Below, in pieces: positions 28,913 through 49,572 of a stretch of 64,000 nt of DNA. The position numbers and the translations under genes were made by a program. Within the stretch, counting starts at the first letter, position 1, and every line of letters begins with the position of its first letter. The notes under the pieces are model-generated. The model was not told the origin of the DNA and ran no database searches. It was given only the letters and a program-made list of their open reading frames with translations. Location: NCBI RefSeq assembly GCF_011045215.1, contig NZ_CP049201.1. One strand, written 5' to 3'. The DNA is from Escherichia coli. Lineage in GTDB: Bacteria; Pseudomonadota; Gammaproteobacteria; Enterobacterales; Enterobacteriaceae.

Positions 28913-31900
28913 ACTGGCCTGTCTGTCTGGTCGCTTTGGGCGACCGGGGATTGTATTTATTGGTGTGGCTGCGCTCTGGTGGCTGATAACCCGATATGGA
29001 GCATATCTGGGGGCAGAAACACGCCGGGATCAAATACTACTGCTGATATTGCTGAGTCTGGGGTTGCTCTTTGTCTGTTACCTGCCTGTGATGAAAAAAT
29101 ATGTTCAGGAACTGACATATCGACGCAGGGCCCGTAAGGAGCAAAGGTTACCTGACGATGAAGAGCGACTGGCTCAGACGCCACCGCGCTATGTTACTGT
29201 TCAGGATATTCGTCATACTCTGCGGCGCCAGTATGGCAGATTCTGGGGACGTAAGATACGCATTCTGTTGATAACAGGTACCGCCTCTGAGGTTGAGTTG
29301 TTGACCCCGGGCCTGACAGAACAGTTCTGGCAGGAAGAGCAGGGGACATTGCTTCTCTGGGGAGGAGACCCCTCGCAGCCGGAAAACGCAGACTGGCTGG
29401 CTGCGTTACGCCGTCTGCGTTACCGGCCTGCTGATGGCATTGTCTGGGTAACTTCCGGACTGAGTGAAACATTATCCGCACCACTTACAGAAGATGCCCT
29501 TGACAGGGTTTCCCGTGCAGTCAGTTCATGTTGTGAGCGCCTTGGCTGGCGTCTGCCGCTGTATGTCTGGTCACTGCAGGAGAGTCCGGATGAGCGTGGG
29601 CGTATTACTCAGCCCGTGGGATGCCTTCTGCCGGCAGAATGTCGTTCTGACAAACTGAAAGCACAACTACAGGCCATGCTCCCCGGGCTTGTTACTCAGG
29701 GGATACAGCAGATATGCAGTGCCCCTCGGTATTATTTTTTGTTGTCGCTGGCAGAGCGATTCAGACGAAATATTGATGCTGTGGTGGAGCCATTATCCGT
29801 ATTACTCCGTTCATACCGTCAGTTGTTGCTGGCGGGTATTGTTTTCAGTCCGGCAACTGTCGGTGGTGAACGAAGTGTCAGACATCGCTGGCGAATGGAT
29901 AACCGCTGGGAGGCGTTGCCGGAGACAGTGCAGCAATTACCTGTCCGGCTACAGCCTTCCCGCACAGGTCATAACTGGCGCAGAAGCCTGACTGTTATGG
30001 CGGTCATACTGATGATGGCTCAGGGAACAGGAATGGTGGTTTCCTTTCTGGCAAACCGGAGTCTGGTTGCTGAAGTACAGGAACAGATTCGTCCAGTTCA
30101 GAACCAGCAACAGTCTCTTACAGAACGTCTGCAGGCGTTGCTGAATCTGCAGAAATCCCTGGCCCGCCTTCAGTATCGTGAGGAGCACGAGGCGCCATGG
30201 TACCTGCGGGCCGGTATGAATCAGAATGCAGACCTGCTCGCGGTCGTAATGCCTCTTTATGCACAAAATGCACATCTTTTACTGCGTGATGCCGCTGCTG
30301 CTCATCTTGAGCAGCAGCTCAGAATATTTATTCGTCTTCCTCCGGACAGCCCGCAGCGGGGGAAAATGGCAAAAGCCGCCCGTGACCAGCTCAGACTGTA
30401 TCTGATGCTGGCGCAACCGCAACATATGGAGTCCGCCTGGTTCAGTCGTACGCTCATGCGGGAATGGCCACAGCGTGACGGTGTGAGTGCCGGTTTCTGG
30501 CAGGCTAACGGCCCGACGCTGCTGGCGTATTATGCCTCCGGGCTTATTACCCATCCTCAGTGGAAGCTGACAGTTGATGAAGAGCTGGTCAGCCAGAGCA
30601 GGACTCTGCTGCTTCGCCATATGGGAACACAGAACAGCGATGCCATGCTGTATCAGAAAATGCTGGCACGGGTGGCACATCAGTTTGCGGATATGCGTCT
30701 GACGGATATGACCGGTGATACTGATGTCTCCCGCCTCTTTTTCACCGATGAAGTGGTCCCCGGTATGTTTACCCGCCAGGCCTGGGAAGAGGCCGTATTG
30801 CCGGCCATAGATACCGTGATTAATGAGCGTCGTGAAGAAATGGACTGGGTACTGACTGATGGCAGGCAGAAGACACCGTCACCGGTATCGCCGGAAGCAC
30901 TCAGACAGCGCCTGAAAACGCGCTATTTTGCTGATTTTGGTAATGCCTGGCTGAATTTTCTGAACAGTCTGCAGTTACGCCGGGCTCAGACGCTGTCTGA
31001 TGTGACAGAGCAGCTGACGCTGATGGCTGATGTGCGCCAGTCCCCCCTGGTTGCACTGATGAATACGCTGGCGGTTCAGGGGCGTACTGGTCAGCCCCGG
31101 GAAGCAGTTACTGATTCACTGGTTAAATCTGCCAGAAACCTGCTTTCACAGGAAAAACAGCCGGTGACAGCACAGGAAAGCCGGCTTCACGGTCCTCTGG
31201 CGACGACTTTCGGGCCGGTGCTTGCACTGATGGATAATCAGAACAACAGCGCGGATATGCTGAATCTGCAGACGTATCTGATCCGGATTACACAGGTTCG
31301 TCTGCGTCTGCAACAGATTGCCGGCTCTTCTGACCCGCAGGCCATGATGCAGATGCTGGCACAGACAGTATTGCAGGGGAAATCGGTTGATTTAACTGAT
31401 ACCCGGGATTACGGCAGCCTGGCCGCTGCCGGACTCGGACAGGAGTGGTATGGCTTCGGACAGACGGTCTTTGTTCGCCCGATGGAGCAGGCGTGGCAGC
31501 AGGTTCTTACACCCGCGGCAGAAAGTCTGAATACCCGGTGGCGTACTGCGGTGGTGGATGGCTGGAATAATGCATTTTCCGGGCGTTATCCGTTTAAAAA
31601 TGTCAGCAGCGATGCTTCACTTCCCCTGCTGGCAAAATACCTGAATACGGACACGGGACGTATTGCCCGTTTTCTGCAGAATAACCTGAGTGGTGTGTTG
31701 CGCAGGGAAGGCAATCGCTGGGTACCGGATACCATTAATACCCGGGGGCTGACATTCAACCCTGCGTTTCTGAAAGCCATCAATACCCTGAGTGAAATAG
31801 CAGATGTGGCGTTCACCACAGGTAACGCGGGGCTGCATTTTGAGCTGCGACCGGGAACTGCTGCCGGTGTGATGCAGACGACGCTGATAACCGATAATCA

Positions 31901-32294
31901 GAAACTGATTTATGTTAATCAGATGCCGGTATGGAAGCGATTTACCTGGCCGGCTGATACGGAAGCACCTGGCGCCAGTTTAAGCTGGGTAAGCACTCAG
32001 GCCGGTACCCGTCAGTATGCAGACCTGCCGGGAAGCTGGGGGCTGATACGTCTGCTTGAGATGGCCCGACGGAAAGCCGCACCGGGCGTTGCCAGTGGCT
32101 GGAGCCTGAGCTGGCAGGCGCAGGACGGTCGTATGCTGAATTACACACTGCGAACTGAAGCGGGGGAAGGGCCGCTTGTATTGCTGAAACTCCGCAATTT
32201 TGTTCTGCCGGAAACGGTTTTCGAACTCTCCGGTACGTCAGCGTTTACAGGCAATGACGAAGATGCCGGGGATTCCGTGGAGGAGACTGACTGA
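28905..32294 (+). CDS. tssM: T6SS membrane-complex protein TssM (IcmF-like)
   Basis: 1129 aa with N-terminal TM helices and large periplasmic region; size and position match IcmF/TssM. Confidence 0.88.
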   Translation: MNKLACLSGRFGRPGIVFIGVAALWWLITRYGAYLGAETRRDQILLLILLSLGLLFVCYLPVMKKYVQELTYRRRARKEQRLPDDEERLAQTPPRYVTVQDIRHTLRRQYGRFWGRKIRILLITGTASEVELLTPGLTEQFWQEEQGTLLLWGGDPSQPENADWLAALRRLRYRPADGIVWVTSGLSETLSAPLTEDALDRVSRAVSSCCERLGWRLPLYVWSLQESPDERGRITQPVGCLLPAECRSDKLKAQLQAMLPGLVTQGIQQICSAPRYYFLLSLAERFRRNIDAVVEPLSVLLRSYRQLLLAGIVFSPATVGGERSVRHRWRMDNRWEALPETVQQLPVRLQPSRTGHNWRRSLTVMAVILMMAQGTGMVVSFLANRSLVAEVQEQIRPVQNQQQSLTERLQALLNLQKSLARLQYREEHEAPWYLRAGMNQNADLLAVVMPLYAQNAHLLLRDAAAAHLEQQLRIFIRLPPDSPQRGKMAKAARDQLRLYLMLAQPQHMESAWFSRTLMREWPQRDGVSAGFWQANGPTLLAYYASGLITHPQWKLTVDEELVSQSRTLLLRHMGTQNSDAMLYQKMLARVAHQFADMRLTDMTGDTDVSRLFFTDEVVPGMFTRQAWEEAVLPAIDTVINERREEMDWVLTDGRQKTPSPVSPEALRQRLKTRYFADFGNAWLNFLNSLQLRRAQTLSDVTEQLTLMADVRQSPLVALMNTLAVQGRTGQPREAVTDSLVKSARNLLSQEKQPVTAQESRLHGPLATTFGPVLALMDNQNNSADMLNLQTYLIRITQVRLRLQQIAGSSDPQAMMQMLAQTVLQGKSVDLTDTRDYGSLAAAGLGQEWYGFGQTVFVRPMEQAWQQVLTPAAESLNTRWRTAVVDGWNNAFSGRYPFKNVSSDASLPLLAKYLNTDTGRIARFLQNNLSGVLRREGNRWVPDTINTRGLTFNPAFLKAINTLSEIADVAFTTGNAGLHFELRPGTAAGVMQTTLITDNQKLIYVNQMPVWKRFTWPADTEAPGASLSWVSTQAGTRQYADLPGSWGLIRLLEMARRKAAPGVASGWSLSWQAQDGRMLNYTLRTEAGEGPLVLLKLRNFVLPETVFELSGTSAFTGNDEDAGDSVEETD

Positions 32295-33892
32295 TGGCTT
32301 CCATTCATTCGCTCCTCAGTGCATGCCAGACGACACCCCGGGATGTGGCTGAACCGGCTCAGGTGCGTATTGTGCTGTGGGATAAATGGCTTGCTCCCGT
32401 GACGCCAGATAATCCCGCAGGTGATGATGCGGGGTACGATGATGATTTTCAGCAGATGCGTGAAGAGGTCAATAAATTCTCCGGAGCCGATGCCGGAATA
32501 GTCAGCCAGCTTGCAGAAAAATTACTGACCACCAGAACCAAAGATATCCGGGTGGCGACCTGGTATATCTGGGCCCGTCTGCGGCAGGATGGTGAAAAAG
32601 GTCTGGCCGACGGTCTGGAGCTGCTGACCGGTTTGTTGCAGCGTTTTGGAGAGCACCTGCATCCACAACGGTCACGGGCCAGGAAGGCGGCGCTGGAGTG
32701 GTTATGCAGCGCCCGCATACTGGACAGTCTGTCTCTGTATCCGGAGGTGGTGAAGGCGGATACCCTGCGCATTGCCGGGGCGCTGTGGCTGGCAGAACAG
32801 ACCTTTACGGATGAGGCTTCCGCCCCGGTGCTGAACGGGTTATATCAGGCACTTGAAAATCGCCTGATGAAGGCCGGTGGTGTTGATGCAGTGGTGCCTC
32901 AGGAGGCTGCCGCGCCGGCACCGACGGTAACATCCGGCAGCGTCACGGCACTATCTGCCATCACCTCCGGACAGGAACTGCTGTCACAGGCTCGTGTTCT
33001 GGCAAAATATCTGCGTGACCAGCCTGAGGGCTGGCTGGCGGCTCATCGGCTGATGAAAAGCGTCCGGCATGACACGCTGCATCAGTTACCGCCGTTATCT
33101 GCTGATGGACGGACCCGTATTGCCCCACCGGGGCCGGACCGGCGTGCGTCACTGAAACGGTTGTATCTGCAGCAGAACTGGTTGTCACTACTTGAGCAGT
33201 GTGACGATATGTTTGCCCGGGGAGCCAGTCATCTGTGGCTGGACCTGCAGTGGTATATTCATCAGGCGCTGTTGCAGACCGGAAAAGAAAATTATGCTGC
33301 CATTATTCAGTATGACCTGAAAGGATTGCTTCTGCGCCTGCCGGGGCTTGAGACACTGGCTTTTAACGACGGCATGCCGTTTGCCGATGACGTGACGCTG
33401 AGCTGGATACAGCAGCAGGTGATGGAGTGTGGTGAACGCTGGGCGGAAGAACTTTCTGTAACGATAACGGCAGCTCCCGGAGATAACGACATTTTATCTC
33501 TTGAGCCGGAAGCCCTGCAGATTGCGGATAATGAAGGAACAGAAGCCGCTTTAAGCTGGTTACAGGCACGTCCCGGTATTCAGTCTGACCGCAGCAACTG
33601 GCTACTGCGCCTGTTGATGGCCCGTGTTGCCGAACAGACTGGAAAAAATGACCTTGCCCTGCATCTGCTTGCGGAGCTGGATGAACGTGCAACCCGGCTG
33701 ACCCTGTCACAATGGGAACCTGAACTGGTATTTGAAGTAAAAGCCCGCCGCCTGAAACTGTTGCGTATGAAGTCCGCAAAAACTGAAAGTGACAGAGTGC
33801 GTCTGCAACCTGATATGGAACATCTTCTTGCCGGGCTTATTGCTATTGATGCTGCCAGAGCTGCTGTGTTGTGCAATCCGGGAAGTTCATGA
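32294..33892 (+). CDS. tssA: T6SS protein TssA (ImpA N-terminal domain)
   Basis: 532 aa; N-terminal VTPDNPAGDDAGYDDDFQQMREEVNK is the ImpA_N signature. Confidence 0.8.
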   Translation: MASIHSLLSACQTTPRDVAEPAQVRIVLWDKWLAPVTPDNPAGDDAGYDDDFQQMREEVNKFSGADAGIVSQLAEKLLTTRTKDIRVATWYIWARLRQDGEKGLADGLELLTGLLQRFGEHLHPQRSRARKAALEWLCSARILDSLSLYPEVVKADTLRIAGALWLAEQTFTDEASAPVLNGLYQALENRLMKAGGVDAVVPQEAAAPAPTVTSGSVTALSAITSGQELLSQARVLAKYLRDQPEGWLAAHRLMKSVRHDTLHQLPPLSADGRTRIAPPGPDRRASLKRLYLQQNWLSLLEQCDDMFARGASHLWLDLQWYIHQALLQTGKENYAAIIQYDLKGLLLRLPGLETLAFNDGMPFADDVTLSWIQQQVMECGERWAEELSVTITAAPGDNDILSLEPEALQIADNEGTEAALSWLQARPGIQSDRSNWLLRLLMARVAEQTGKNDLALHLLAELDERATRLTLSQWEPELVFEVKARRLKLLRMKSAKTESDRVRLQPDMEHLLAGLIAIDAARAAVLCNPGSS

Positions 33893-34025
33893 GATGTCTG
33901 AATTATATTCATGTGTAATCTGATTAATGAAATCCGGCCTGCAGTTCAGTTCGGACGATTGTTTGAAGTATGGTTGAAGTCAGAGCGCGAGTCTCCGGAA
34001 CAGTTAGCTTTATTCTGAGAAGATA

Positions 34026-35789
34026 ATGGACGATTTAACCCTGCGTTATTTTGACGCTGAAATGCGTTATCTGCGTGAAGCCGGAAAGGCGTTTGCACAG
34101 GCTCATCCCGATCGGGCGGCGATGCTGGATCTCGATAAAGCGGGTACGCCTGATCCCTGCGTGGAGCGCCTGTTTGAAGGTTTCGCCTTTTCCATGGGAC
34201 GACTGCGCCAGAAAATCGACGATGATTTGCCGGAGCTTACTGAAAGTCTGGTCAGTATGCTCTGGCCTCATTACCTGCGTACTATCCCGTCCCTGTCGGT
34301 GGTGGCACTGACTCCCCGGTTATCCGTCATGAAAATGGCTGAAACCGTACCAGCCGGACTGGAAGTGACTTCCCGCCCTGTTGGCCCCGGAAATACAGTC
34401 TGTCGTTACCGTACCACCCGGGCCATACCACTGAATCCACTGGCAGTGGAGAAGGTTGTTATGACGACGGAGCCGGACGGGCGTTCAGTGTTGAAAATAG
34501 GTTTTGCCTGCAGTGAACTGGCTGACTGGTCTCAGGTCGATTTGCATCGTCTGAGCCTGTATCTGGCAGCAGAAGCCCCGGTCAGCAGCACCCTTCATCT
34601 GATGATGACAAAGCGTCTGGCTGCGCTGTATCTGAGGCTGCCGGGAAATGATGAGCGGATCCGCATTGACGGATGGTTTTCTCCCGGTGGTTTTGCAGAA
34701 GAAGATCGGCTGTGGCCGAAAGGTGACAGTGCTTTCAGTGGGTATCAGTTATTGCTGGAATATTTCACCTTTCGGGAAAAGTTTATGTTTGTTCATCTGA
34801 ACGGACTGGAGAATGTTTCTCTGCCGGCAGGTATTTCCGGATTTGATCTTGAGGTGGTGCTGAGTCAGCCCTGGCCGGCAGATTTACCTGTGACAGACGA
34901 TGCCCTGTGTCTGCATTGTGTGCCGGTGATTAACCTTTTTACGCTTGAAGCCGATCCACTCATCATCAATGGGCTGGAGAGCGAATACCTGCTGCGCCCG
35001 AAGCGTCTGCAGGATGGGTATACGGAGATATATTCCGTGGATGCGGTGACGGGCTCCGGGCGAACCGGCAGTGCAGAGTACGTGCCTTTTACCAGCTTCC
35101 GTCACCGTGGGGGAATGCTGCGCCATGATGCACCCGAACGTTATTATCATACCCGGGTGAAGCGGGGTGTCACGGGGATGTATGACACATGGCTTATCCT
35201 TGGCGGTCAGCGGTGGGAGGCGGATCGGATGCCGGAGCGGGAAACGCTTTCATTACGTATTACAGGTACCAATGGTCAGCTTCCCCGTCGTGCGTTGCAG
35301 AGTACGCTGCTTGATCGGTGTGAACAGGTACTGCAGACCCCGGTCAGTGTACGTAATCTTTGTAAACCCACGCTACCGGTTTATCCGCCGACAGAAGATC
35401 GTTTTCACTGGCGGGTGATGAGTCATCTGGGGACAGGATTTCTTAACATGCTGAGCAGTGCGGAAGTGCTGCGTGGCACGCTGGCGCTTTATAACTGGCG
35501 GGACGATGAACTTAATCACCGTCGGCTTGATGCCATTCTGGCTGTACAGCATCATCGTATTCAGCGTTTTGAAAAGGGTTTTCTGCTCCGGGGGCTTGAT
35601 GTGGAGGTAACTCTTGATGGCAACGGGTTTGCCGGAGAGGGAGATATTCACCTGTTTGGCGAAATGCTCAACCGTTTCCTGGCCCTGTACGCCGATATGA
35701 ATCAGTTCAATCAGCTCACACTGATTGTTCAGCCTGAAGGAAAATGCATCCGGTGGAAAGAAAATCACAATCCGCGCCTGCCCGGTTAA
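34026..35789 (+). CDS. tssF: T6SS baseplate protein TssF
   Basis: 587 aa; MDDLTLRYFDAEMRYLREAGKAFAQAHPDRAAMLDL start typical of TssF. Confidence 0.85.
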   Translation: MDDLTLRYFDAEMRYLREAGKAFAQAHPDRAAMLDLDKAGTPDPCVERLFEGFAFSMGRLRQKIDDDLPELTESLVSMLWPHYLRTIPSLSVVALTPRLSVMKMAETVPAGLEVTSRPVGPGNTVCRYRTTRAIPLNPLAVEKVVMTTEPDGRSVLKIGFACSELADWSQVDLHRLSLYLAAEAPVSSTLHLMMTKRLAALYLRLPGNDERIRIDGWFSPGGFAEEDRLWPKGDSAFSGYQLLLEYFTFREKFMFVHLNGLENVSLPAGISGFDLEVVLSQPWPADLPVTDDALCLHCVPVINLFTLEADPLIINGLESEYLLRPKRLQDGYTEIYSVDAVTGSGRTGSAEYVPFTSFRHRGGMLRHDAPERYYHTRVKRGVTGMYDTWLILGGQRWEADRMPERETLSLRITGTNGQLPRRALQSTLLDRCEQVLQTPVSVRNLCKPTLPVYPPTEDRFHWRVMSHLGTGFLNMLSSAEVLRGTLALYNWRDDELNHRRLDAILAVQHHRIQRFEKGFLLRGLDVEVTLDGNGFAGEGDIHLFGEMLNRFLALYADMNQFNQLTLIVQPEGKCIRWKENHNPRLPG

Positions 35790-36844
35790 TTACCCGTTAC
35801 CGGAAACAGCTTCCGTATATTAATTTTTACCGCTTCTGTCAGTTACTGGAACAAAGCCAGCCAGACCAGCCTCCCATTGGCAGTGGCTGGCAGGCCCGTC
35901 AGGAAGCGGTTCGCTTTTGTCCATACCCGGGAATGGGGTTTCCTGCGAGTGAAATAAAAGACGCTGTAATTCCTGAAGAATCCCATCTGCCACCCACTGT
36001 ACATGTGACGTTTATGGGACTTTACGGGGTCACGTCTCCGTTGCCGGCACACTATATCAGTGATATTGCACAGCAGCGGGAAGGCCATGAGGCGGCAGCG
36101 GATTTTCTCGATATATTCAGTCATCGTCTGATCACCCAGTATTACCGTATCTGGCGCAAATATTCGTACCCGGCCACCTTTGAGGCGGGAGGGCAGGATA
36201 AAACGTCTCAGTATCTGCTCGGTCTGGCTAGGCTGGGGATCCCCGGATGTGCACAGAATATTGCCACGCCGGTATCGCGTTTTCTGGCGTTATTGCCCCT
36301 GATGTTGTTACCCGGAAGAACAGCTGAAGGGCTGACATCACTGGTAACGCTACTAGCTCCCGGAACACAGGCCCGTGTCTGGCATCATGACCGACGACGG
36401 ATCCCGCTGAAAACACCGCTGACCATGCGTGTTCATCATCCGGTCAGTCTGAAGAGTCGCCCGGTGATGGGCGATCATGCCACGGATGTGAACGGACAGG
36501 TGTTATTACAGCTTTCAACACAGACGGGCAGCGAGGTACAGGGCTGGTTACCGGGCGGGCAGCTGTATTCTGATTTGCTGGCGTTGTTGCACGTTTATCT
36601 GGGAAGCCGTCTGGATGTACGTCTGCAACTTTGTGTTGAGCGTTCACTGTTACCAGATGCCCGGCTCAGTTGCCGGCCGGCAGCCGGTAGTCCGCAACTG
36701 GGGCGCACGGCAGTAATGAGAACACAGGCAAAGATAACGAATTCAGCGGCACGCGTCATGACCATCAGTCTGGGGCGTTATCAGCGGGTTCAGGAACATT
36801 ATCAACGTAAGGAGACTCAGGAAAATGGCGATTATCGCTGGTAA
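35744..36844 (+). CDS. tssG: T6SS baseplate protein TssG
   Basis: 366 aa immediately after tssF with overlap; start codon uncertain. Confidence 0.78.
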   Translation: MHPVERKSQSAPARLITRYRKQLPYINFYRFCQLLEQSQPDQPPIGSGWQARQEAVRFCPYPGMGFPASEIKDAVIPEESHLPPTVHVTFMGLYGVTSPLPAHYISDIAQQREGHEAAADFLDIFSHRLITQYYRIWRKYSYPATFEAGGQDKTSQYLLGLARLGIPGCAQNIATPVSRFLALLPLMLLPGRTAEGLTSLVTLLAPGTQARVWHHDRRRIPLKTPLTMRVHHPVSLKSRPVMGDHATDVNGQVLLQLSTQTGSEVQGWLPGGQLYSDLLALLHVYLGSRLDVRLQLCVERSLLPDARLSCRPAAGSPQLGRTAVMRTQAKITNSAARVMTISLGRYQRVQEHYQRKETQENGDYRW

Positions 36845-37361
36845 GGCTGGTTACGGTCTGATTATTGCGTTGTTTTCCCTGTCGTTATCAGGGTGCGGTC
36901 TGACGCAAAGAGTGGCAGACGGTACGGTATCTGCCACGAAATCCCTGTTTTACCGACAGATAAAAACACTTCACCTGGATATTCGTGCAAGGGAGGCCAT
37001 TAACACCAGTGCTGCCGGTATTCCCCTGTCGGTTGTGGTGCGGATTTATCAGCTTAAAGACAACCGGAATTTTGACAGTGCGGATTATCAGGCGCTTTTT
37101 ACGGGGGACAATGAAATTCTGGCAGGCGATATCATTGCACAGAAAGATGTATGGCTGCAGCCAGGAGGTTCAGTAGCCGTGGATATGCCCCTGGATGATG
37201 CGGCGAAATTTACCGGTGTGGCAGCAATGTTTCTGGAGCCTGACCGGAAGAAAAATACCTGGCGGGTGGTGCTGAGCCGGGATGAGCTTGAGCCGGACAC
37301 GCCCCGTCTTATTGAAGTATCCGGTAACACCCTGACGCTGTTACCGGTGAAGGATAAATAG
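36825..37361 (+). CDS. tssJ: T6SS outer-membrane lipoprotein TssJ
   Basis: 178 aa with lipobox LSLSGCGL; position before tssE. Confidence 0.72.
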   Translation: MAIIAGKAGYGLIIALFSLSLSGCGLTQRVADGTVSATKSLFYRQIKTLHLDIRAREAINTSAAGIPLSVVVRIYQLKDNRNFDSADYQALFTGDNEILAGDIIAQKDVWLQPGGSVAVDMPLDDAAKFTGVAAMFLEPDRKKNTWRVVLSRDELEPDTPRLIEVSGNTLTLLPVKDK

Positions 37362-37363
37362 CG

Positions 37364-37795
37364 ATGCCGCGTCCTTCCCTTTATGAAATTCTCTATGGCA
37401 ATTTCGCTGGCGGGCTGGAGTTAAATCAGGTCGGTGAGGAAGAGCAGGTTATTCTTTCGGTGCTCGATAACATGCAGCGTATTCTGAATACCCGGGCCGG
37501 AAGCCTTAAACATCTGCCGGATTATGGTCTGCCGGATATAACAACCATTCTGCAGGGAATGCCGGGGACGGCGCATCAACTGATGCGCGTGCTTTCAGAT
37601 GTTCTGCTGAAGTATGAGCCACGTATTAAGCGTGTCGACGTGACGATGCAGGAACAGACTCAGCCAGGTGAGTTGCATTATGTCATTGATGCAGAACTTA
37701 AAGATGCAGGGCTGGTTCGCTACGGAACAACATTTATGCCGGAGGGCAGGGTGTTGTTGCGCCATCTGAAACAGCAGCGGTACGTTCAGACGTGA
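37364..37795 (+). CDS. tssE: T6SS baseplate protein TssE (gp25-like)
   Basis: 143 aa; SLYEILYGNF...ILSVLDNMQRILNTRAGS... matches the gp25/TssE family pattern. Confidence 0.8.
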   Translation: MPRPSLYEILYGNFAGGLELNQVGEEEQVILSVLDNMQRILNTRAGSLKHLPDYGLPDITTILQGMPGTAHQLMRVLSDVLLKYEPRIKRVDVTMQEQTQPGELHYVIDAELKDAGLVRYGTTFMPEGRVLLRHLKQQRYVQT

Positions 37796-37951
37796 GCCGG
37801 AGCAGGGAGGGCAAAACAGAAATTAATAAACAGTGATGGATATATGTCAGGTGTGAATGTGACATTATACTGGCTTATGACAACACTGGCTGAATGTTTC
37901 ATCATCCTGATAACTCTGGCATATCAACAATAACAATGTATGAGTTTTTAA

Positions 37952-38353
37952 ATGAAGAAAATTATCTGTTTTCTGTTCGTGGGGCTTTTATTTTCGGTTC
38001 AGGCAGATGCTGCGCGGGGAAGAAAACCCTGCTCGGGTGCTAAAGGTGGTATTTCACACTGCACGTCAGACGGACGTTTTGTCTGCAATGACGGAAGTCT
38101 GAGTCAGTCGAAGCGCTTTTGTTCCGGTTATGGCGTGGCACCCGACAAACGTCAGGTGGAATCACCGGTCACCACGAAGCCGGTTCAGAAGAAAAAATCA
38201 GCGGCTGTCCGGAAGGTGTCACAACCGTCGGTGGCCGGGAAAAATGAGGTTGTACCGGTCACTGAACCCCGTAAACCCACCTGTGCGCCGCTTTATATGG
38301 CCAGCAAACCTGGATTTACACATCTGCCCATTTGTTCCGGTAATCAGTATTAA
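37952..38353 (+). CDS. Secreted Cys-containing small protein (signal peptide)
   Basis: 133 aa; signal peptide MKKIICFLFVGLLFSVQADA; mature part has Cys-containing Gly-rich N-terminal segment and Lys-rich middle. Confidence 0.5.
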   Translation: MKKIICFLFVGLLFSVQADAARGRKPCSGAKGGISHCTSDGRFVCNDGSLSQSKRFCSGYGVAPDKRQVESPVTTKPVQKKKSAAVRKVSQPSVAGKNEVVPVTEPRKPTCAPLYMASKPGFTHLPICSGNQY

Positions 38354-38508
38354 TCTGACACTGAAATAGCAGAGAAATCTGTGCTCAGCCTGCAGTTAAT
38401 TCTGTACTGGTGGGCATCATAAAGCCGGACAGCCTTCCGGGTATAAATATTTCCGGAGGGCGTTAATCAAAGATATTCAGTTACTGAGAAGGAAAATAAA
38501 GGAAAGTC

Positions 38509-39752
38509 ATGGCAGGAAGAAAAAAAGATGATAATGCAGCGGGATTTGTTCTGATTTTAGTTTGCGTTATTCTCTGGGGGATTTATGTGGCGGTCAGGGC
38601 GCTGATAAATCTTAATGAGCGCTTTATTGATGCAGTATCGAATCCGGCAGGTATTATTGGTTTGTTTTTGGGTTTGCTTACTGTATTTGCAATTTTACTT
38701 CGTTTTTTTATTTACCGGAGACTCAGAAAGAAAACAGCAGCCTTTGAGCAGGCCGTTTCAGAGCTGGTTCAGAGAGAACGGGGTTTTAATGAAACTGTCA
38801 ATGCCGCGATAGCCCGGGGAATACGACAGGAAAAGGAGCAACTAGCCAGACGTCGTGAGGATTTCATACCGCCAGACAGAAGGCCAGCCGTGCAATGCAA
38901 CGGATTGTTGATTCCGCTTGGAAATTTAAGGCGAAGACTCTGCTGGCTGGTGTAACGATTAATAACTGGCAAAGCAAATATGACCAGCTTCGTAAGGAAA
39001 GAGAGGCTTACGCTGCTGTCAGTGAGAAAATTGCCTTTCTTAACCTGGAAGATAATTCTGACTGGGAGAGTGTCAGGCAACAGTTTCTGGACAAAGTGGC
39101 GTTGCTGGAAAAAGCGCAGGAAGAAAAGGAATATCAGGCAGAGCTTAAGCGTCAGATGCGTGAAGAAAAAGAGCGTCAGGATGAACTTGACCGGCGCCAG
39201 CGGGAAGCGGAAGAGGAAGAGCGGCGTCTTGCCGAGCAGCAGAAACTGATTGAAGAGGCGCTGCGTGCCGCAGAAGGGGCTCACAGGGAGGAGCTGGAGA
39301 AACAACGCCTGGCGCTGGAACAGAAAATTCAGGAAGCGCATGCGCAGTACGAACGTGCTAAATCCATGGCTCAGCTTACGAAACAGGGGCATGTTTATAT
39401 CATTTCGAATATTGGTTCGTTTGGTGAGGATGTCTTTAAAATTGGCATGACCCGACGGCTGGAACCCATGGACAGGGTCAAAGAGTTAAGTGGTGCTTCT
39501 GTTCCGTTTGATTTTGATGTTCACGCCATGATTTCCTGTGATGATGCGCCTGCGCTGGAAAAAACACTTCATGACAGTCTGGAAAAATACCGCATTAACA
39601 GGATTAACCTGCGTAAAGAATTTTTCCGCGTGAAGCTTGAGAAAATCATTAATGAAGTGGAGCGTCACCACGGGCAGGTGGAATATGTGGCTGACCCGGC
39701 GGCGCTGCAGTACCTGCAGAGTCTGGAGTGCGCGGAAAATGAAGCTGCCTGA
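38509..39752 (+). pseudogene. Membrane-anchored coiled-coil protein with C-terminal T5orf172/GIY-YIG-like domain (DUF4041-type), frameshifted as given
   Basis: ORF 38509..38955 (two TM helices then helical region) and ORF 38895..39752 (coiled coil then GHVYIISNIGSFGEDVFKIGMTRRLEPMDRVKEL...FDFDVHAMI) are adjacent, overlap, and lie in different frames; both frames read as natural protein up to the 38860..38900 interval. Confidence 0.6.
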
Positions 39753-39944
39753 CAATCAGTGTTCTGATTTTATTCCGGCCGGATATAACAGAAGGGATAT
39801 CTGCACATATCCTGCAGCATGGTTCACGGTATTCCGGTCATGTTAATGATTCTGTTTTTTATTTCTGAATAAAACGACACCCACGATATAACGTCGTGGG
39901 TGTCGGTGGTGATTATTTTTTTGTTCACAGATTAAGGTGCGTTT

Positions 39945-41732
<1,788 letters not shown>

Positions 41733-41797
41733 TACCGGATTATTTCTTTATTCCGGGCTTTCACCATACTGTTATTATCAGGTTTATTTAATTCGCC

Positions 41798-42103
41798 ATG
41801 AACCCGTTATTTAACGATATTCAGATGCGTCTTTTTTATCTGAACCACTCTCCGTACTCCTGGCACTGGAATGTCAGATTCAGACCTCAGGAAGCCGTAT
41901 ATATTGGCAACGATACCTGTCATATCACCATTACCTGTAATCAGTCAGGTTTTCATTTAACCCGGGACGGACAACGGCTGTTCACTGAGCGTTATATCAG
42001 AAACCTTAATGAGCTGTTACCGGTTCTGAAACGGCGGTGGGATGTGACACCGGCAATCATCCGTGCAGTGGAATACCTTTCCCGGGTCCCGGTATCACAC
42101 TGA
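41798..42103 (+). CDS. Hypothetical protein (101 aa)
   Basis: ORF only; no recognisable motif. Confidence 0.3.
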   Translation: MNPLFNDIQMRLFYLNHSPYSWHWNVRFRPQEAVYIGNDTCHITITCNQSGFHLTRDGQRLFTERYIRNLNELLPVLKRRWDVTPAIIRAVEYLSRVPVSH

Positions 42104-42157
42104 CATTCTTTCCGTAACTGTTAATCATGATTTAATACAGCAACACTGAATCTGCCG

Positions 42158-43522
42158 ATGACTTCTGAAGTGAAACTGAAAACCGGTGGTGACCCCCGGT
42201 CATTACCGGATTATACTGCCCTACGTGATGAAATCAGCAAACTGACCCACCCGGCACGCCCGGATGTGGACTGGCGTTATGTGGAAACACTCTGCCTGCG
42301 TCTGTATGAACACAATGGCGTGGAATTACAGACGGCATCCTGGTACACCATCGCCCGGATGCATACAGCAGGGTTAAGTGGCCTGAATGAAGGGCTGGCT
42401 CTGATTGTGGCGCTGACCCGGCATCACTGGTCAGTGATGTGGCCGCTGAATACCCACGCCCGGCTGGAAATTATTACCGGTCTGTTCAACCGTCTGCAAA
42501 AAACGCTCCGGGCCATGCCACCGGATAACCGTGACAACCTGCCTCAGCTGTATCAGACCGAAACATTCCTGAAGGTACTGAGTGACATATTTATCCGACA
42601 TGAGCTGAAGCAAAACAGCCGGCTGGTGTTACTGGAAAACATGGTGAAGGGATATATCATTCGTCTGGAGAATCAGCCTTTACAGGGGGATGATTCGTCC
42701 CCGGTAACGCTTCCTGCTCAGGCACTCCGGTCTGATGCACCGGATGTGCAGGAACATCAGACCCTGCCGCACTCCCGTCTGGTGTATATTGTTTCTGAAA
42801 CAAAAGCAGAACCCTCCCCCTCCCTTCAAAAGTCTTCACCCACGTTTCTGAAACCGTTTGTGGCTGGTGTCTGTGCGGCATTGCTGGCTGTCAGCATGGC
42901 CATTCCGGGATGGCAGTTTCTGACACAGCCATCACCGGCGGAGCAGCAACTCAGGGCGCTGCTGACCCCCCCACCGGATGTGCTTTCAGCAGACCAGATG
43001 ACACAGCTCAGCAGAATACCCTCACTGTTAAATCATGTGTCAGAGTGGATACCCCTTTCCGGTCAGCAGATAACGCGACTGACAGAACTACCGCCGGCAT
43101 ACAACCTGCAACGCAGTGCGCAGCTGCTGCAGCAACTGATGGTGCTTTTTCCCGATAATCCCCGTGTCCAGGAAATGGTGGATAACTGGCAGAAGAGTGT
43201 AATGAGCCGTGCGCTCCCGGAAGAGGCGATGACGGGCTGGAACGAAGGTATGACCCGCTTACAGCAGCTGGCTGAGCGCCTGAACCGTCTGGATGAACAG
43301 CGGGGAAAATACATAACGGTCAGTGAACTGAAAACGGAGGTGTTTGGCATCATGCAGGCTTTTAACCGGCATATCCCGGCAGAAGAGCAGTTACGTCGCT
43401 ATGGCGAAGCCCGCAACCAGAATGGCAGTGAACAGCAGCAAAAACAGGCTGAAATGGCGCTGAATCAGTTGATTAACCGTTATCAGATGGAACACACAGG
43501 CAATCAGGAGGGGCAGCCATAA
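42158..43522 (+). CDS. ImpA_N-domain protein (TssA-related, TagA/VasL-like) with internal TM helix
   Basis: 454 aa; N-terminal GGDPRSLPDYTALRDEISKL...PDVDWRYVETLCLRLYEHNGVELQTASWYTIARMHTAGLSGLNEGL matches the ImpA-related N-terminal domain; hydrophobic segment FVAGVCAALLAVSMAIPGW mid-protein. Confidence 0.65.
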   Translation: MTSEVKLKTGGDPRSLPDYTALRDEISKLTHPARPDVDWRYVETLCLRLYEHNGVELQTASWYTIARMHTAGLSGLNEGLALIVALTRHHWSVMWPLNTHARLEIITGLFNRLQKTLRAMPPDNRDNLPQLYQTETFLKVLSDIFIRHELKQNSRLVLLENMVKGYIIRLENQPLQGDDSSPVTLPAQALRSDAPDVQEHQTLPHSRLVYIVSETKAEPSPSLQKSSPTFLKPFVAGVCAALLAVSMAIPGWQFLTQPSPAEQQLRALLTPPPDVLSADQMTQLSRIPSLLNHVSEWIPLSGQQITRLTELPPAYNLQRSAQLLQQLMVLFPDNPRVQEMVDNWQKSVMSRALPEEAMTGWNEGMTRLQQLAERLNRLDEQRGKYITVSELKTEVFGIMQAFNRHIPAEEQLRRYGEARNQNGSEQQQKQAEMALNQLINRYQMEHTGNQEGQP

Positions 43523-43846: not shown

Positions 43847-45662
43847 ATGAGATTACATAGTCTTAAAATAAAAGGATTTAAACGTATCCAAACTGCAAGA
43901 GATAATATTTGGTGATACCACGTTTCTCATTGGTGCTAATAATGCCGGTAAAAGTTCTGTTCTGAAGGCCGTTGAATGGCTGCTTTCAGATAAAAAGAAG
44001 ATGGATATTGACTTTTTTTATTGTGAATCTGATGAATCACGTGAAAATAAAATAGCAACTGAGTCAATTGTACTCGAGGCTGAATTCAGAAATGTACCGG
44101 AAGAGGCATTGCAATGGAGAGGTTTTAGGGGGAGGATATTTGAATATAATGCTGGAAATAGTGGGGAAACGGGAAAGTCTCTGATTTACAGGAAAACATA
44201 TGAACCGGGGAATGATGTTGTTATTGAATTGAAATCTTTTTCAAGAAAATTGAATACACGATTTGAAACCGCAGTCAGAGCATCTGACTTGGTAGAAGCT
44301 GGTGCTGATGCCGAAATCATCACTGAGTATTTTCCAGATCAAGCTAAAAGATTTAATGCAGCTGACAAAGAAAAATTAAAACTCATTGATGAATTATGGG
44401 ATATTTCTGATGATGAAGAAGTTTGGGATAAAAACCCGGGGGGAATTGCAGGTGTTGTGTTATCCCGATTACCTGCTTTTCTATTAATACCAGCAGAATC
44501 AGCTTCTCATGAAATTGACACAAAAGCGGGAGCTTTGCAGAAAACGCTGAATGAACTATTCAAAGATGTTCGTGGCAATTCAGAAAATTATAGAAAGGCC
44601 CAGGAGTCTCTGAATGCGCTTGCGAAGGAATTAGATCCTGCAGATGAAACGTCAGAATTTGGTGTGATGATGGGAGAACTTAACAGTGTATTAAGCGGAG
44701 TTTTTCCAGAGTCAAAGATATATGCTACGGCTGATTTATCTGATCCTGATAATGTTCTCCTACCTTCATTTTCGGTTGAAATGTCGAGTAACATTAAAAC
44801 ATGTGTATCGAATCAAGGAACCGGAATGATTCGAGCAGCTGTATTTGGATTGTTGAGATTTCGGCAGCAATGGCTGAGAAAAAAAGGTAAGGATGATGCT
44901 GCTACCAGAAGTCTTATTATTGGATTTGAAGAACCAGAAATTTATTTACACCCTAGTGCAGCAAACCAGATGAGAGATTTGATTTATGAATTATCAGATG
45001 GACAGTCACAAATAATAGCGACAACACATTCACCTTATTTGATTGATTTGTCGAGAAAACCCCGACAGGTACTTAACCGATTCCATTATGATAATTCACA
45101 TACGACAGTCTACCCGCTCTCAGTGACAGAGAAATTTCTGGCCTTGCAGGATAATGATAAAGATCAGATAAAAATGCTGATTAAGCTGGATGATCATGTA
45201 TCAAGGATCTTTTTTACCCGAAAAGTTGTTGTTGTCGAGGGAGATACAGAGGAAGTCATTATCAAAGAAGCTATCCGCAGAATGCCAAAAGCAATGCGAA
45301 ATAAGTTGCTTGCATCAACAGAGCTGGTTAAAGCACGTGGCAAGGCTGCGATTATCGGCCTGGTGAAGTATCTTAGCGCGCTGGATGTTGATTTTTTTGT
45401 TATCCATGATCGTGATGGCGGAACTCCCGGTGCGGAGATCTTTAATGCGCCGATTGCTGCTGCTGTTGGGGATGCCAGCAAAGTTATCATGCTGGAAGAG
45501 TGTATTGAGGATCTGCTGGGGTACCCAGCTCCAAGTGGTGAAAAACCGTTTAAGGCGTATCAGGAAGCACAGCGCTGGGGAGATAACTGGAATGACGTGC
45601 CTGAACCATTAAGGAGAATACTGACTAGAGCTTTTTCCCCATTTATCGATTTGGCTGAATGA
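43847..45662 (+). pseudogene. OLD-family ATP-dependent endonuclease (ABC-type ATPase plus Toprim), N-terminal frameshift as given
   Basis: ATG at 43847 encodes MRLHSLKIKGFKRIQTARDNI then TGA at 43913; shifting frame at 43908..43913 gives FGDTTFLIGANNAGKSSVLKAVEWLL (Walker A) continuous with the 44001..45662 ORF; downstream TTHSPYLIDLS and Toprim-like VVVVEGDTEE...FFVIHDRDGG. Confidence 0.75.
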
Positions 45663-48816: not shown

Positions 48817-49572
48817 TTAACTCGTTTTTTCGATGCTTTCCACTACCGGGGGGTTTTTCCTCAGGGACTCTCCCTGAAGGACCAGTCTGTGTGAGTTATG
48901 TACCAGTCTGTCCAGGATGGCATCTGCTGTTGTTGGGTTCTCCATCAGACCATGCCATTTATCTACCGGGAACTGGCTTACCACTATCGTGCTGCTTTGA
49001 CCGTAACGATCTTCTATGAGCTCCAGAAGGTCATTACACTGGGCGTTACTTAACTGTTCCAGCCCCAGATCGTCCAGGATTAGAACCTGTATTTTTTGCA
49101 ACTGTTTCAGATATTTCAGCCAGCTGCCATCAACACGTCCCTGAGCCAGTTGTTCCAGTAATCGCCCGGTTCTACAGTACCGGACGCTGTGTTTCTGTCG
49201 ACATGCCTGTTCGCCCAGCGCATTGGCTATCCAGCTCTTGCCACATCCTGTCGGACCGGTTATCAGCAGGTTTTTCCTGTGGGTTATGTAGTGGCCGTTC
49301 AGCAGTTCCCTCATCTGTTCAGCCCGCAGACCTCTTGAGGCCGGATAGCGCAGCCCTTCCGGTGTTGCCTGATATTTCAGGCCGGCATTTTTTCTCAACC
49401 GTGCCACACGGCTGTTTTCCCTGCTCAGAAGCTCGTCATCAACCAGCAGCGTCAGCCTTTCCTCGAACGACAGTTCGTCGTAGGTCTGAGGCGTTTCCCG
49501 CTGCCGTATCAGGCTCCCGGCCATCGCCGGGAGTTTCAGTTGGGTCAGTTTGTTTAACAGATTATCACTCAT
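48817..49572 (-). CDS. istB: IS21 helper ATPase IstB
   Basis: Start at ATG giving MSDNLLNKLTQ; Walker A GPTGCGKS and Walker B VLILDDLG; the ORF-track N-terminal extension is judged spurious. Confidence 0.85.
   Translation of the reverse strand: MSDNLLNKLTQLKLPAMAGSLIRQRETPQTYDELSFEERLTLLVDDELLSRENSRVARLRKNAGLKYQATPEGLRYPASRGLRAEQMRELLNGHYITHRKNLLITGPTGCGKSWIANALGEQACRQKHSVRYCRTGRLLEQLAQGRVDGSWLKYLKQLQKIQVLILDDLGLEQLSNAQCNDLLELIEDRYGQSSTIVVSQFPVDKWHGLMENPTTADAILDRLVHNSHRLVLQGESLRKNPPVVESIEKTS

What the first reader, a model, noticed from the sequence alone, without database searches (positions are those of the whole stretch)
38509..39752. Membrane-anchored coiled-coil protein with T5orf172 (GIY-YIG-like) domain, split by a frameshift
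The two-TM N-terminal part and the coiled-coil plus T5orf172 C-terminal part are in different frames with a 60-nt overlap (38895..38955), and both frames read as natural protein up to the 38860..38900 interval, pointing to a single indel in one gene. The combination of membrane anchor, long coiled coil and predicted nuclease-like domain is an uncommon architecture. There is no homopolymer at the junction, so a true mutation is more likely than a read error.
Basis: partly seen in the sequence, partly recalled or inferred. Interest (0 to 1): 0.55.

Follow-up and report, generated by a model that had tools for sequence, protein, structure and literature searches.

The report
Frameshifted SNIPE-like membrane nuclease in T6SS cluster
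A one-base deletion has broken a gene for a membrane-anchored DNA-cutting enzyme related to the anti-phage nuclease SNIPE; the break is an ordinary strain-private pseudogene, but the intact gene turns out to be a conserved, so far unstudied resident of enterobacterial type VI secretion gene clusters.

Summary
ORF1 (38509..38955) and ORF2 (38895..39752) are two halves of one gene, split by loss of a single A (GAGGAATTTC to GAGGATTTC, 38857..38865). Intact 414-aa orthologues occur in 142 of 5426 complete E. coli genomes. None of the 100 genomes matched across the junction carries the deletion. An independent read assembly (Logan SRR11014969) does carry it, so it is probably a real mutation private to this isolate.

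The restored protein has a two-helix membrane hairpin, a helical middle domain, a long charged linker helix and a T5orf172/MUG113 (GIY-YIG-like) nuclease. Its closest characterised relative is SNIPE (PD-lambda-1), a membrane-bound nuclease that cuts phage DNA during injection. The match is 47% identity over linker plus nuclease and 296 bits to the PADLOC PD-Lambda-1 model. Pfam DUF4041, which SNIPE needs, is not detected. Profile-profile comparison and predicted topology suggest only a reduced version of it.

One result was unexpected. This clade sits in a fixed slot of the T6SS cluster (tssE ... gene ... vasL/tagA) in at least 10 enterobacterial genera, and is as conserved as the T6SS core genes. 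Its nearest other relatives are prophage genes (phiP27 L22 and a Mu-like prophage).

Verdict: an inactivated new variant of a known kind, of moderate interest.

The parts
38509..39752 (+). Whole disrupted gene. It is the orthologue of the E. coli 414-aa 'GIY-YIG nuclease family protein' and, by inference, of EC042_4547 in EAEC 042.
   Evidence: The EC042_4547 assignment is inferred from the position of ops2.
38857..38865 (+). Frameshift site: GAGGATTTC, where orthologues have GAGGAATTTC. One A is deleted at 38861/38862.
   Evidence: All 100 E. coli matches across the junction keep the A.
38509..38955 (+). ORF1, 148 aa: native residues 1-117 (membrane hairpin plus the start of the stalk helix), then 31 out-of-frame residues and a stop.
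   Evidence: No Pfam family matched.
38539..38601 (+). Predicted transmembrane helix 1 (residues about 11-31).
   Evidence: Hydropathy. AF2 helix 10-42.
38647..38715 (+). Predicted transmembrane helix 2 (residues about 47-69), followed by the basic stretch YRRLRKK. I infer an N-in/C-in hairpin from the positive-inside rule.
   Evidence: Hydropathy and flanking charge. AF2 helix 46-147.
38895..39752 (+). ORF2, 285 aa, equal to restored residues 130-414: middle domain, linker helix and nuclease, without the membrane anchor.
38913..39074 (+). Middle helical domain core (restored residues 136-189). It is positionally equivalent to Pfam DUF4041 of a true SNIPE homologue and contains the conserved 'VTINN' loop (N153).
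   Evidence: MAFFT mapping. hhalign gives probability 68%, P=4.8e-5, in the same register. AF2 topologies are co-linear. The Pfam DUF4041 model itself is negative.
39063..39383 (+). Long charged linker helices (restored residues 186-292; about 27% Glu), corresponding to SNIPE's 'downstream alpha helix'.
   Evidence: Composition. AF2 helices H186-254 and H258-292. BLASTP to a SNIPE homologue starts at residue 224.
39387..39665 (+). T5orf172/MUG113 (GIY-YIG-like) nuclease core (restored residues 294-386). Residues Y297, K311, G313, R316, R317, N364 and E371 sit in invariant columns and are intact.
   Evidence: Pfam. Invariant columns in the 60-sequence alignment.
37952..38353 (+). Upstream neighbour: a YdcA-like small protein that belongs to the conserved slot.
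39945..41732 (+). Downstream neighbour: a NERD + UvrD-like helicase. It is an optional partner in this slot, present in E. coli, Serratia and some Enterobacter.
   Evidence: PADLOC C3a187, 2.5e-141. Contexts.
42158..43522 (+). ImpA_N/VasL (TagA-like) T6SS gene that closes the slot.
37364..37795 (+). tssE, the T6SS baseplate gene that opens the slot.

Best explanation
**What the gene encodes.** The locus is one gene for an inner-membrane-anchored nuclease of the SNIPE type.
- In intact orthologues, an N-terminal two-helix hairpin tethers the protein to the inner membrane. I infer that both ends are cytoplasmic.
- A long stalk helix leads into a small helical domain, which is a reduced counterpart of SNIPE's DNA-binding DUF4041.
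- A charged linker helix then leads to a T5orf172/GIY-YIG-like nuclease.

**Inferred mechanism.** By analogy with SNIPE, the tethered nuclease would cut foreign DNA (phage DNA above all) as it crosses the inner membrane, and the tether would keep it away from the chromosome.

**Where the clade lives.** This clade is carried as a stable accessory gene of an enterobacterial T6SS cluster, between tssE and the TagA-like vasL gene. In EAEC the accessory genes EC042_4547-4549 in this slot are described as one accessory operon, whose transcription downstream of ops2 depends on the cluster's RfaH/ops elements.

**What happened in this genome.** A single-A deletion after codon 117 splits the gene.
- One product is a 148-aa membrane stub.
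- The other is an anchor-less nuclease ORF that has no obvious ribosome-binding site of its own.
- The allele is most likely null: a recent pseudogene private to this isolate.

**Shown:** the deletion, the domain content, the homology and the synteny.
**Inferred:** the topology, the DNA-entry mechanism and the loss of function.
For: **Frameshift**
- The deletion is located by alignment and restoration and is absent from the 100 complete E. coli genomes matched across the junction.
- It is reproduced in an independent assembly.

**Family assignment**
- PADLOC PD-Lambda-1: 1.8e-88 over residues 201-412 and 1.4e-83 over residues 125-412.
- 47% identity over residues 224-406 to a full-length PD-Lambda-1/DUF4041 protein from a Salmonella plasmid.
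- Foldseek top hits are all T5orf172/DUF4041 proteins.
- phrog_8430 matches the full length, 1-410; phrog_1847 matches from residue 120.

**Anchor:** hydropathy and the AF2 model.

**Nuclease residues:** in invariant columns of the alignment.

**Middle domain**
- Three methods give the same register: MAFFT, the PADLOC HMM envelope and hhalign (P=4.8e-5).
- The order helix, N-loop, helix, loop, long helix is the same in both AF2 models.

**SNIPE mechanism, from the paper**
- SNIPE consists of a TM anchor, DUF4041 and a GIY-YIG nuclease.
- It cleaves lambda DNA during injection.
- The version without the TM anchor is toxic.
- Its N-terminal region is hypervariable, and 7% of homologues have two TM helices.

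**Mobile or defence ancestry**
- The 66%-identical relative lies in a Mu-like prophage.
- phiP27 L22 has one TM helix and is 63.6% identical over residues 117-413. It sits just after the Q antiterminator.
Against: - Pfam DUF4041, which SNIPE requires for defence, gives no hit.
- The profile-profile signal for the middle domain is weak, with probability 29-68%. The SNIPE homologue's model has an extra helix and a small beta-sheet that this protein lacks.
- PD-Lambda-1 models are matched only over their C-terminal 45-60%.
- No NCBIfam model matches and no solved structure matches.
- Tight, cross-genus conservation inside a T6SS cluster is unusual for a phage-defence gene. The protein is 78% identical between genera, as high as or higher than TssF, TssG, TssJ and TssA.
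- No experiment on this clade was found in the searchable literature.
- Loss of function is inferred, not measured.
Confidence: 0.6

Rival explanations
1. The protein is a dedicated T6SS accessory factor and not a phage-defence nuclease. It would work with the T6SS machinery or its regulation, for example by acting on DNA at the membrane complex, processing DNA released from prey, or controlling the TagA-dependent step.
For: - The slot tssE-(ydcA-like)-gene-(NERD helicase)-vasL is fixed in Serratia, Enterobacter, Citrobacter, E. coli, Salmonella arizonae, Pluralibacter, Huaxiibacter, Tenebrionibacter, Kosakonia, Lelliottia and Rosenbergiella.
- The protein is 78% identical across genera. The flanking T6SS proteins are 42-80% identical.
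- An EAEC study calls EC042_4547-4549 'accessory genes' and places them in an accessory operon. Its reporter between EC042_4548 and EC042_4549 depends on ops1, ops2 and RfaH.
Against: - No T6SS-specific domain is present.
- The closest relatives outside the clade are prophage genes.
- Everything from residue about 125 onward matches the PD-Lambda-1 defence model.
- The gene is dispensable in this isolate, and it is truncated or only a remnant in some others: Citrobacter braakii L026 and Rosenbergiella L031, and a 166-aa form on 17 contigs.
- The sheath phenotype of the ops2 mutant is explained by tagA downstream.
Confidence: 0.15
2. The frameshift is a sequencing or assembly artefact and the gene is intact in the living organism.
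For: - It is a single-base indel next to a short AA/TTT run.
- The exact split products are seen in only one sequencing run.
- The window's assembly and the Logan contig may come from the same reads.
Against: - An independent assembler produced the identical 11,104 nt, including the deletion.
- The run is only 2 nt long.
- The rest of the T6SS cluster reads as intact long ORFs.
- The other broken gene nearby is a substitution (CAG to TAG), not an indel. This argues against an indel-prone assembly.
Confidence: 0.08
3. The split is functional. The two ORFs would be expressed as a membrane stub plus a free nuclease (by coupling or internal initiation), or rejoined by programmed -1 frameshifting.
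For: - ORF2 starts at a native in-frame Met (M130), 60 nt before the ORF1 stop.
- All nuclease residues are intact.
- In the AlphaFold database a 285-aa protein (A0A1V8P5X6) is listed for Citrobacter braakii, and the braakii locus L026 matches only residues 81-414.
Against: - There is no slippery heptamer at 38857..38865.
- Only a weak GAAGG lies 11 nt upstream of the ORF2 ATG, as read directly from the sequence.
- Every other genome encodes one polypeptide.
- In SNIPE, the anchor-less nuclease is highly toxic to the host. Efficient ORF2 expression should therefore be selected against.
Confidence: 0.05
4. It is a selfish homing-endonuclease-type T5orf172 gene, like those in phages T5 and ICP1.
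For: T5orf172 domains in phages are often homing-endonuclease-like (papers listed; PMC10448857).
Against: - The protein has a membrane anchor and a long stalk.
- It lacks the sequence-specific DNA-binding modules typical of homing endonucleases.
- It is a stable single copy in one syntenic slot across genera.
Confidence: 0.02

Closest known systems
SNIPE (= PD-lambda-1), E. coli membrane-bound anti-phage nuclease (Saxton et al., bioRxiv 10.1101/2025.11.03.685801; discovered by Vassallo et al. 2022)
   Same: - It has an N-terminal membrane anchor with the remainder of the protein inferred to be cytoplasmic.
- The order of parts is the same: middle helical domain, long linker helix, C-terminal T5orf172/GIY-YIG nuclease.
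- It is 47% identical over linker plus nuclease to a full-length family member.
- It scores 280-296 bits against the PADLOC PD-Lambda-1 models.
- The N-terminal region varies among relatives, with 1-TM and 2-TM forms. The paper reports the same for SNIPE.
   Different: - It has a two-helix hairpin where E. coli SNIPE has one TM helix.
- It is shorter: 414 aa, against 509-519 aa for the two full-length family members compared here.
- Pfam DUF4041 is not detected. The predicted middle domain lacks the extra helix and the beta-strands.
- PD-Lambda-1 models are covered only from position about 189 or 264 onward.
- It is embedded in a T6SS cluster and highly conserved, not scattered in defence islands or prophages. 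The SNIPE paper does not mention T6SS.
- No functional data exist for this clade.
Phage phiP27 protein L22 (NP_543074.1) and PHROG 8430
   Same: - phiP27 L22 is 63.6% identical over residues 117-413, which covers the same type of middle domain, the linker and the nuclease. It also has an N-terminal membrane helix.
- phrog_8430 matches the whole protein, residues 1-410.
   Different: - phiP27 L22 has one TM helix and an unrelated N-terminal 100 residues.
- It is encoded in a lambdoid Stx2e prophage just after the Q antiterminator, not in a T6SS cluster.
- Its function is unknown.
EAEC 042 sci1 T6SS accessory genes EC042_4547-4549 (bioRxiv 10.1101/2025.02.08.637259)
   Same: The locus is orthologous. 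Gene order and about 97% DNA identity are shared with E. coli 042. In that study, transcription downstream of ops2 depends on the cluster's RfaH/ops elements.
   Different: - The paper assigns no function to these genes.
- The locus-tag assignment (EC042_4547 = this gene) is my inference from the ops2 position.
- In the window the gene is frameshifted, and the 042 ops2 core GGTAGCTT reads GGTGGCTT.

Membership tests
SNIPE / PD-lambda-1 | C-terminal GIY-YIG-type (T5orf172) nuclease domain with conserved catalytic residues | tested here: met
   Pfam T5orf172 9.8e-17 and MUG113 1e-18 at residues 294-386. Y297, K311, G313, R316, R317, N364 and E371 sit in invariant columns of the 60-sequence alignment. 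The equivalence of E371 to SNIPE E414 is inferred and was not aligned to the SNIPE sequence itself.
SNIPE / PD-lambda-1 | N-terminal membrane anchor that places the nuclease in the cytoplasm | tested here: met
   There are two hydrophobic segments, 11-31 and 47-69, predicted as helices. Basic residues flank both cytoplasmic ends (MAGRKK and YRRLRKK). The topology is inferred from the positive-inside rule and was not measured.
SNIPE / PD-lambda-1 | DUF4041 middle domain (DNA and tape-measure binding; required for defence) | tested here: inconclusive
   - The Pfam DUF4041 model gives no hit. Among 60 homologues, 23 hit it at E<=0.001.
- hhalign of the middle region against DUF4041-family profiles gives probability 29-68%, best P=4.8e-5, always in the same register around the conserved N153.
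- AF2 topology is co-linear with a true homologue, but one helix and the beta-strands are missing.
SNIPE / PD-lambda-1 | Full-length match to the family profile (PADLOC PD-Lambda-1) | tested here: not met
   Only profile positions 264-476 of 491 and 189-475 of 496 are matched, at 280-296 bits. True members match end to end with 525-682 bits.
SNIPE / PD-lambda-1 | Protects against phage by cutting DNA during genome injection; the anchor-less form is toxic | not testable with these tools
   This needs plaque assays, a labelled-DNA injection assay and toxicity tests on the repaired allele.
T6SS core or known accessory (Tss/Tag) proteins | Homology to a named Tss/Tag family | tested here: not met
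   No T6SS family was found in Pfam, NCBIfam or PADLOC. The only link is synteny.
Pseudogene by frameshift | A single indel relative to intact orthologues, with no recoding signal | tested here: met
   A one-A deletion. Orthologues are uninterrupted. No slippery site is present in the sequence.

The most novel reading that the evidence does not exclude
The T6SS-embedded clade would be a functional partner of the secretion system and not passive cargo. It would be a SNIPE-like nuclease whose membrane hairpin docks at or near the T6SS membrane complex. It would be expressed as part of the same accessory operon as tagA. It would destroy DNA entering at that site, whether from phages that exploit the envelope breach or the T6SS components, or DNA taken up after killing prey.

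Under this reading, the frameshift in this isolate would uncouple that guard. Through polarity it might also lower TagA expression.
Probability: 0.12. Interest if true: 0.7.

Novelty: new variant of a known kind. Interest (0 to 1): 0.38.

Why it matters
The broken gene is routine in itself: one isolate has lost one accessory nuclease.

What it pointed to is more useful. A SNIPE-related membrane nuclease with a reduced middle domain is kept in a fixed slot of the T6SS cluster in at least ten enterobacterial genera. These include the model EAEC sci1 cluster, where it is probably EC042_4547, and I found no study of its function.

If it works like SNIPE, it extends the 'cut DNA at the point of entry' defence strategy to a minimal, two-TM form. 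It would also show that T6SS islands carry conserved anti-phage cargo. If it serves the T6SS instead, it would be a new accessory component.

The natural frameshift allele also sets up a simple test. SNIPE without its anchor is toxic, so it is worth asking whether the surviving ORF2 is silent.

Tried and rejected
- **Programmed frameshifting.** Rejected: there is no slippery site and all orthologues are unsplit.
- **Pfam DUF4041.** No hit on ORF2 or on the restored protein.
- **NCBIfam.** No model for the protein.
- **PDB sequence search.** No relatives.
- **Promoter and terminator scan of 37800..40100.** Promoter-like sites were no more frequent than in shuffled sequence; six terminator-like sites against about two expected, none of which I could interpret.
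- **ops2 in the intergenic region upstream of the gene.** No GGTAGNNT motif there in the window or in 042. In 042 the motif lies downstream of the gene, at the start of the NERD-helicase ORF.
- **Exact look-up of the restored 414-aa sequence.** Not in the collection. The nearest intact alleles differ by 5-6 residues, so the parental allele was not sampled and the age of the deletion cannot be bounded.
- **Foldseek on the whole elongated model.** It confirms the family, but the rmsd is too high (10-50 A) to judge the middle domain.
- **Literature search linking T5orf172 or GIY-YIG to T6SS accessory genes.** Nothing relevant.
- **First identity script.** It returned blanks because of a loading error; it was redone.
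Full report
**1. The observation**

The window has ORF1 at 38509..38955 (148 aa) and ORF2 at 38895..39752 (285 aa) on the + strand. They overlap by 61 nt and ORF2 is in the -1 frame relative to ORF1.

A megablast of 38300..39900 against 5,426 complete E. coli genomes finds the locus in 142 of them. In 138 the match covers at least 80% of the query, at about 96-98% identity. Each time it is annotated as one 'GIY-YIG nuclease family protein'.

In strain STEC313 the gene is 1245 nt, or 414 codons. The window's span is 1244 nt. The pairwise alignment shows one gap only: GAGGAATTTC in STEC313 against GAGGATTTC in the window, at 38857..38865. Re-inserting the A restores a 414-aa reading frame. The restored gene differs from STEC313 at 24 nucleotides, only 5 of which change an amino acid.

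**2. Is the deletion real, and how common is it?**

- A 70-nt probe centred on the junction matches 100 complete genomes. Every match spans 71 nt in the subject, so every one keeps the A.
- An exact-sequence look-up finds the 148-aa and 285-aa products on a single contig among the indexed public assemblies: Logan SRR11014969_186.
- That contig is 100.000% identical to window 28895..39998 over 11,104 nt, deletion included.
- An independent assembler working from raw reads therefore reproduces the deletion. If both assemblies rest on the same reads, a systematic read error is not formally excluded. The run is only AA, however.
- The second broken gene I noticed nearby is a substitution, not an indel.
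- I conclude that this is most likely a real mutation private to this isolate.
- The exact restored protein is not in the collection. The nearest intact alleles differ by 5-6 residues, so I cannot date the event.

**3. What the intact protein is**

*N-terminal anchor.* Hydropathy gives two hydrophobic segments, about 11-31 and 47-69. They are flanked by MAGRKK at the N-terminus and YRRLRKK after the second segment. By the positive-inside rule this predicts an N-in/C-in hairpin with a 15-residue periplasmic loop. That topology is an inference.

*Domains.* Pfam finds only MUG113 (1e-18) and T5orf172 (9.8e-17), at residues 294-386.

*Predicted structure.* AlphaFold2 with a 60-sequence alignment gives mean pLDDT 87. 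The elements in order are:
- helices 10-42 and 46-147, which form the hairpin and continue as a long stalk;
- a loop at 148-153;
- helix 154-174;
- a loop;
- helices 186-254 and 258-292, which are about 27% Glu and rich in Arg, Lys and Gln;
- an alpha/beta nuclease domain at 294-414.

*Nuclease residues.* Y297, K311, G313, R316, R317, N364 and E371 fall in invariant columns of the alignment. All of them lie in ORF2 and are intact.

I did not test whether the long helices form a true coiled coil. 'Charged linker helix' is the safer description.

**4. Closest known system**

PADLOC-DB assigns the protein to PD-Lambda-1, at 1.8e-88 and 1.4e-83. PD-lambda-1 has since been characterised and renamed SNIPE (bioRxiv 10.1101/2025.11.03.685801). 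The paper reports the following:
- SNIPE has an N-terminal transmembrane anchor, a DUF4041 domain that binds DNA and probably the phage tape-measure protein, a downstream helix and a GIY-YIG nuclease.
- It cuts lambda DNA during injection.
- The nuclease mutant E414A and the DUF4041 deletion both lose defence.
- The version without the anchor is toxic because it attacks the chromosome.
- Homologues have hypervariable N-terminal regions: 59% have one TM helix and 7% have two.

A true family member, a Salmonella plasmid protein of 509 aa, matches the PD-Lambda-1 models end to end at 525-559 bits. It shares 47% identity with the window protein, but only over residues 224-406, which is linker plus nuclease. 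Foldseek against AFDB50 returns only T5orf172/DUF4041 proteins. No solved structure is related by sequence.

**5. The DUF4041 question**

This is the one defining SNIPE feature that is in doubt.

- The Pfam DUF4041 model does not hit the protein.
- Among 60 homologues drawn from an exhaustive search (3,422 proteins at E<=1e-3), all have T5orf172. Only 23 hit DUF4041 at E<=0.001.
- In a Klebsiella plasmid homologue, DUF4041 lies at residues 220-271. MAFFT maps this to window residues 136-189.
- I compared the middle regions alone with hhalign:
  - The Pfam-negative majority group is clearly homologous to the DUF4041 group: probability 97.7%, E=1.5e-12.
  - The window's own subgroup gives only 29-39% with 5 sequences.
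  - It gives 48-68% (best P=4.8e-5) with 15 sequences.
  - The register is always the same, around a conserved '(V/L)T.NN(W/Y)' loop. N153 is at least 90% conserved.
- An AF2 model of the Klebsiella homologue shows H204-231, a loop at 232-237, H238-255, a strand, a long helix H265-337, H343-378 and then the nuclease. This order is co-linear with the window protein.
- The Klebsiella homologue also has an additional helix (165-184) and a small beta-sheet that the window protein lacks.

My reading is that the window protein has a reduced, divergent DUF4041 core. The test is inconclusive. I therefore describe the protein as SNIPE-like and do not file it as a strict member.

**6. Genomic context, the unexpected part**

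In the window the order is tssF, tssG, tssJ, tssE, a YdcA-like ORF, this gene, a NERD+UvrD helicase (PADLOC candidate C3a187, 2.5e-141), a 101-aa ORF, then an ImpA_N/VasL (TagA-like) gene.

The same slot holds a 414-aa orthologue, 75-79% identical, in several other places:
- Serratia;
- Enterobacter;
- a Citrobacter plasmid-borne T6SS;
- EAEC 042.

I also scanned one genome per bacterial species. Of 19 loci with relatives at least 71% identical, 18 have VasL and/or TssE/YdcA next to the gene. The genera are Enterobacter, Serratia, Pluralibacter, Huaxiibacter, Salmonella arizonae, Tenebrionibacter, Kosakonia, Lelliottia and Rosenbergiella. The exception is a truncated copy in Citrobacter braakii. 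None of the more distant relatives has T6SS neighbours.

Identity of window proteins to their Serratia and Enterobacter counterparts:

| Protein | Serratia | Enterobacter |
|---|---|---|
| This protein | 78% | 78% |
| TssF | 80% | 61% |
| TssG | 72% | 46% |
| TssJ | 56% | 47% |
| TssE | 75% | 76% |
| TssA | 60% | 61% |
| VasL | 42% | 43% |

The gene is therefore under purifying selection at least as strong as that on the T6SS core.

A recent EAEC study calls EC042_4547-4549 'accessory genes' of the sci1 cluster. It places them, with the ops2 element, in an accessory operon, and its reporter inserted between EC042_4548 and EC042_4549 depends on RfaH, ops1 and ops2. It assigns them no function. 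From the position of the ops2 motif in 042, I infer that EC042_4547 is this gene. That TagA is EC042_4550 is my recollection and was not checked.

I found no paper connecting T5orf172 or SNIPE with T6SS clusters.

**7. Relatives outside the T6SS slot are prophage genes**

- The next representative, at 66% identity with two TM helices, lies among Mu-like prophage genes: GemA, Mu gp27 and baseplate J.
- Stx2e phage phiP27 encodes L22, 409 aa with one TM helix. It is 63.6% identical over residues 117-413 and sits directly after the Q antiterminator.
- PHROG 8430 matches the whole protein.

This pattern of a conserved C-terminal three-quarters with swapped membrane anchors in mobile elements is what the SNIPE paper describes for its family. 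It supports a defence or superinfection-exclusion origin.

**8. Consequence of the frameshift**

- ORF1 keeps residues 1-117, then adds 31 unrelated residues.
- ORF2 begins at native M130 and encodes an anchor-less middle domain, linker and nuclease.
- Only a weak GAAGG lies 11 nt upstream of the ORF2 ATG (read).
- SNIPE without its anchor is highly toxic. I therefore infer that ORF2 is poorly translated or not translated, and that the allele is null.
- About 800 nt of untranslated mRNA might also reduce expression of the downstream helicase and vasL/tagA genes through polarity. This is speculation.

**9. Verdict**

The gene is an inactivated copy of a SNIPE-like membrane nuclease.

It differs from SNIPE in four ways: the two-TM hairpin, the reduced middle domain that Pfam does not detect, the partial profile coverage, and above all its conserved residence in a T6SS cluster. 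I rate it a new variant of a known kind.

Interest is moderate. The pseudogene itself is ordinary. The T6SS-embedded clade deserves an experiment in EAEC 042.

Noticed in passing
window 53656..57072 (stop codon at 55615..55617): A second defence gene in the same island is broken. It is a type I restriction R-subunit-like DEAD-box helicase, 1121 aa and intact in E. coli C5. Here it carries a nonsense substitution, CAG to TAG (Q637*), with no indels over 3.6 kb at 99.5% identity. Both halves hit the same PADLOC REase_I model (positions 5-636 and 668-1099 of 1107).
   Followed up: yes
window about 40005..40015 (start of the NERD-helicase ORF) versus L012 7184..7191: The RfaH 'ops2' core reported for EAEC 042 (GGTAGCTT) reads GGTGGCTT in the window, and also in strains STEC313 and C5. 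The ops1-like GGTAGCGT upstream of clpV (18058..18065) is present. ops2 may be specific to 042, or non-functional here.
   Followed up: partly
window 39945..41732: A NERD + UvrD-like helicase (PADLOC candidate C3a187, 2.5e-141; RefSeq calls it a '3'-5' exonuclease') lies directly downstream. It also follows the nuclease gene in Serratia and some Enterobacter, but is absent from the slot in others. It may be an optional partner of the nuclease.
   Followed up: partly
window 44001..45662 and 48817..52750: An OLD/GajA-like ATPase-Toprim protein (PADLOC Old, 1.7e-50) is followed by an IS21 element (istA/istB on the minus strand) and an IS4 transposase. A type I R-M system (M, S and a second large helicase ORF) lies at 57136..63182. 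Together they form a defence island appended to the T6SS cluster.
   Followed up: partly
loci L016-L031 versus window 34026..43522: T6SS core genes fall into two divergence classes across genera: TssF about 80% or about 60%, TssG about 72% or about 47%. TssE (70-79%), the nuclease (71-79%) and VasL (41-44%) are uniform. This suggests that the block from tssE to vasL has a separate recombination history from the baseplate genes upstream of it.
   Followed up: no
clusters; L026, L027 and L031: Other independent truncations of the same gene exist:
- a 166-aa form in Escherichia sp. 4_1_40B, on 17 contigs;
- a copy in Citrobacter braakii ATCC 51113 (L026) that matches only residues 81-414 and lies outside any T6SS cluster; the AlphaFold database lists a 285-aa C. 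braakii protein;
- a 120-aa C-terminal remnant in Rosenbergiella;
- a partial match in Kosakonia.
The gene is lost repeatedly despite its overall conservation.
   Followed up: no
L012 9334..10701 (E. coli 042), L001 and L005: RefSeq annotates the TagA-like ImpA_N/VasL gene of EAEC 042, STEC313 and C5 as three pseudogene fragments. The window (42158..43522, 454 aa) and the Citrobacter plasmid have one intact ORF. This may reflect real decay in those strains or an annotation artefact.
   Followed up: no
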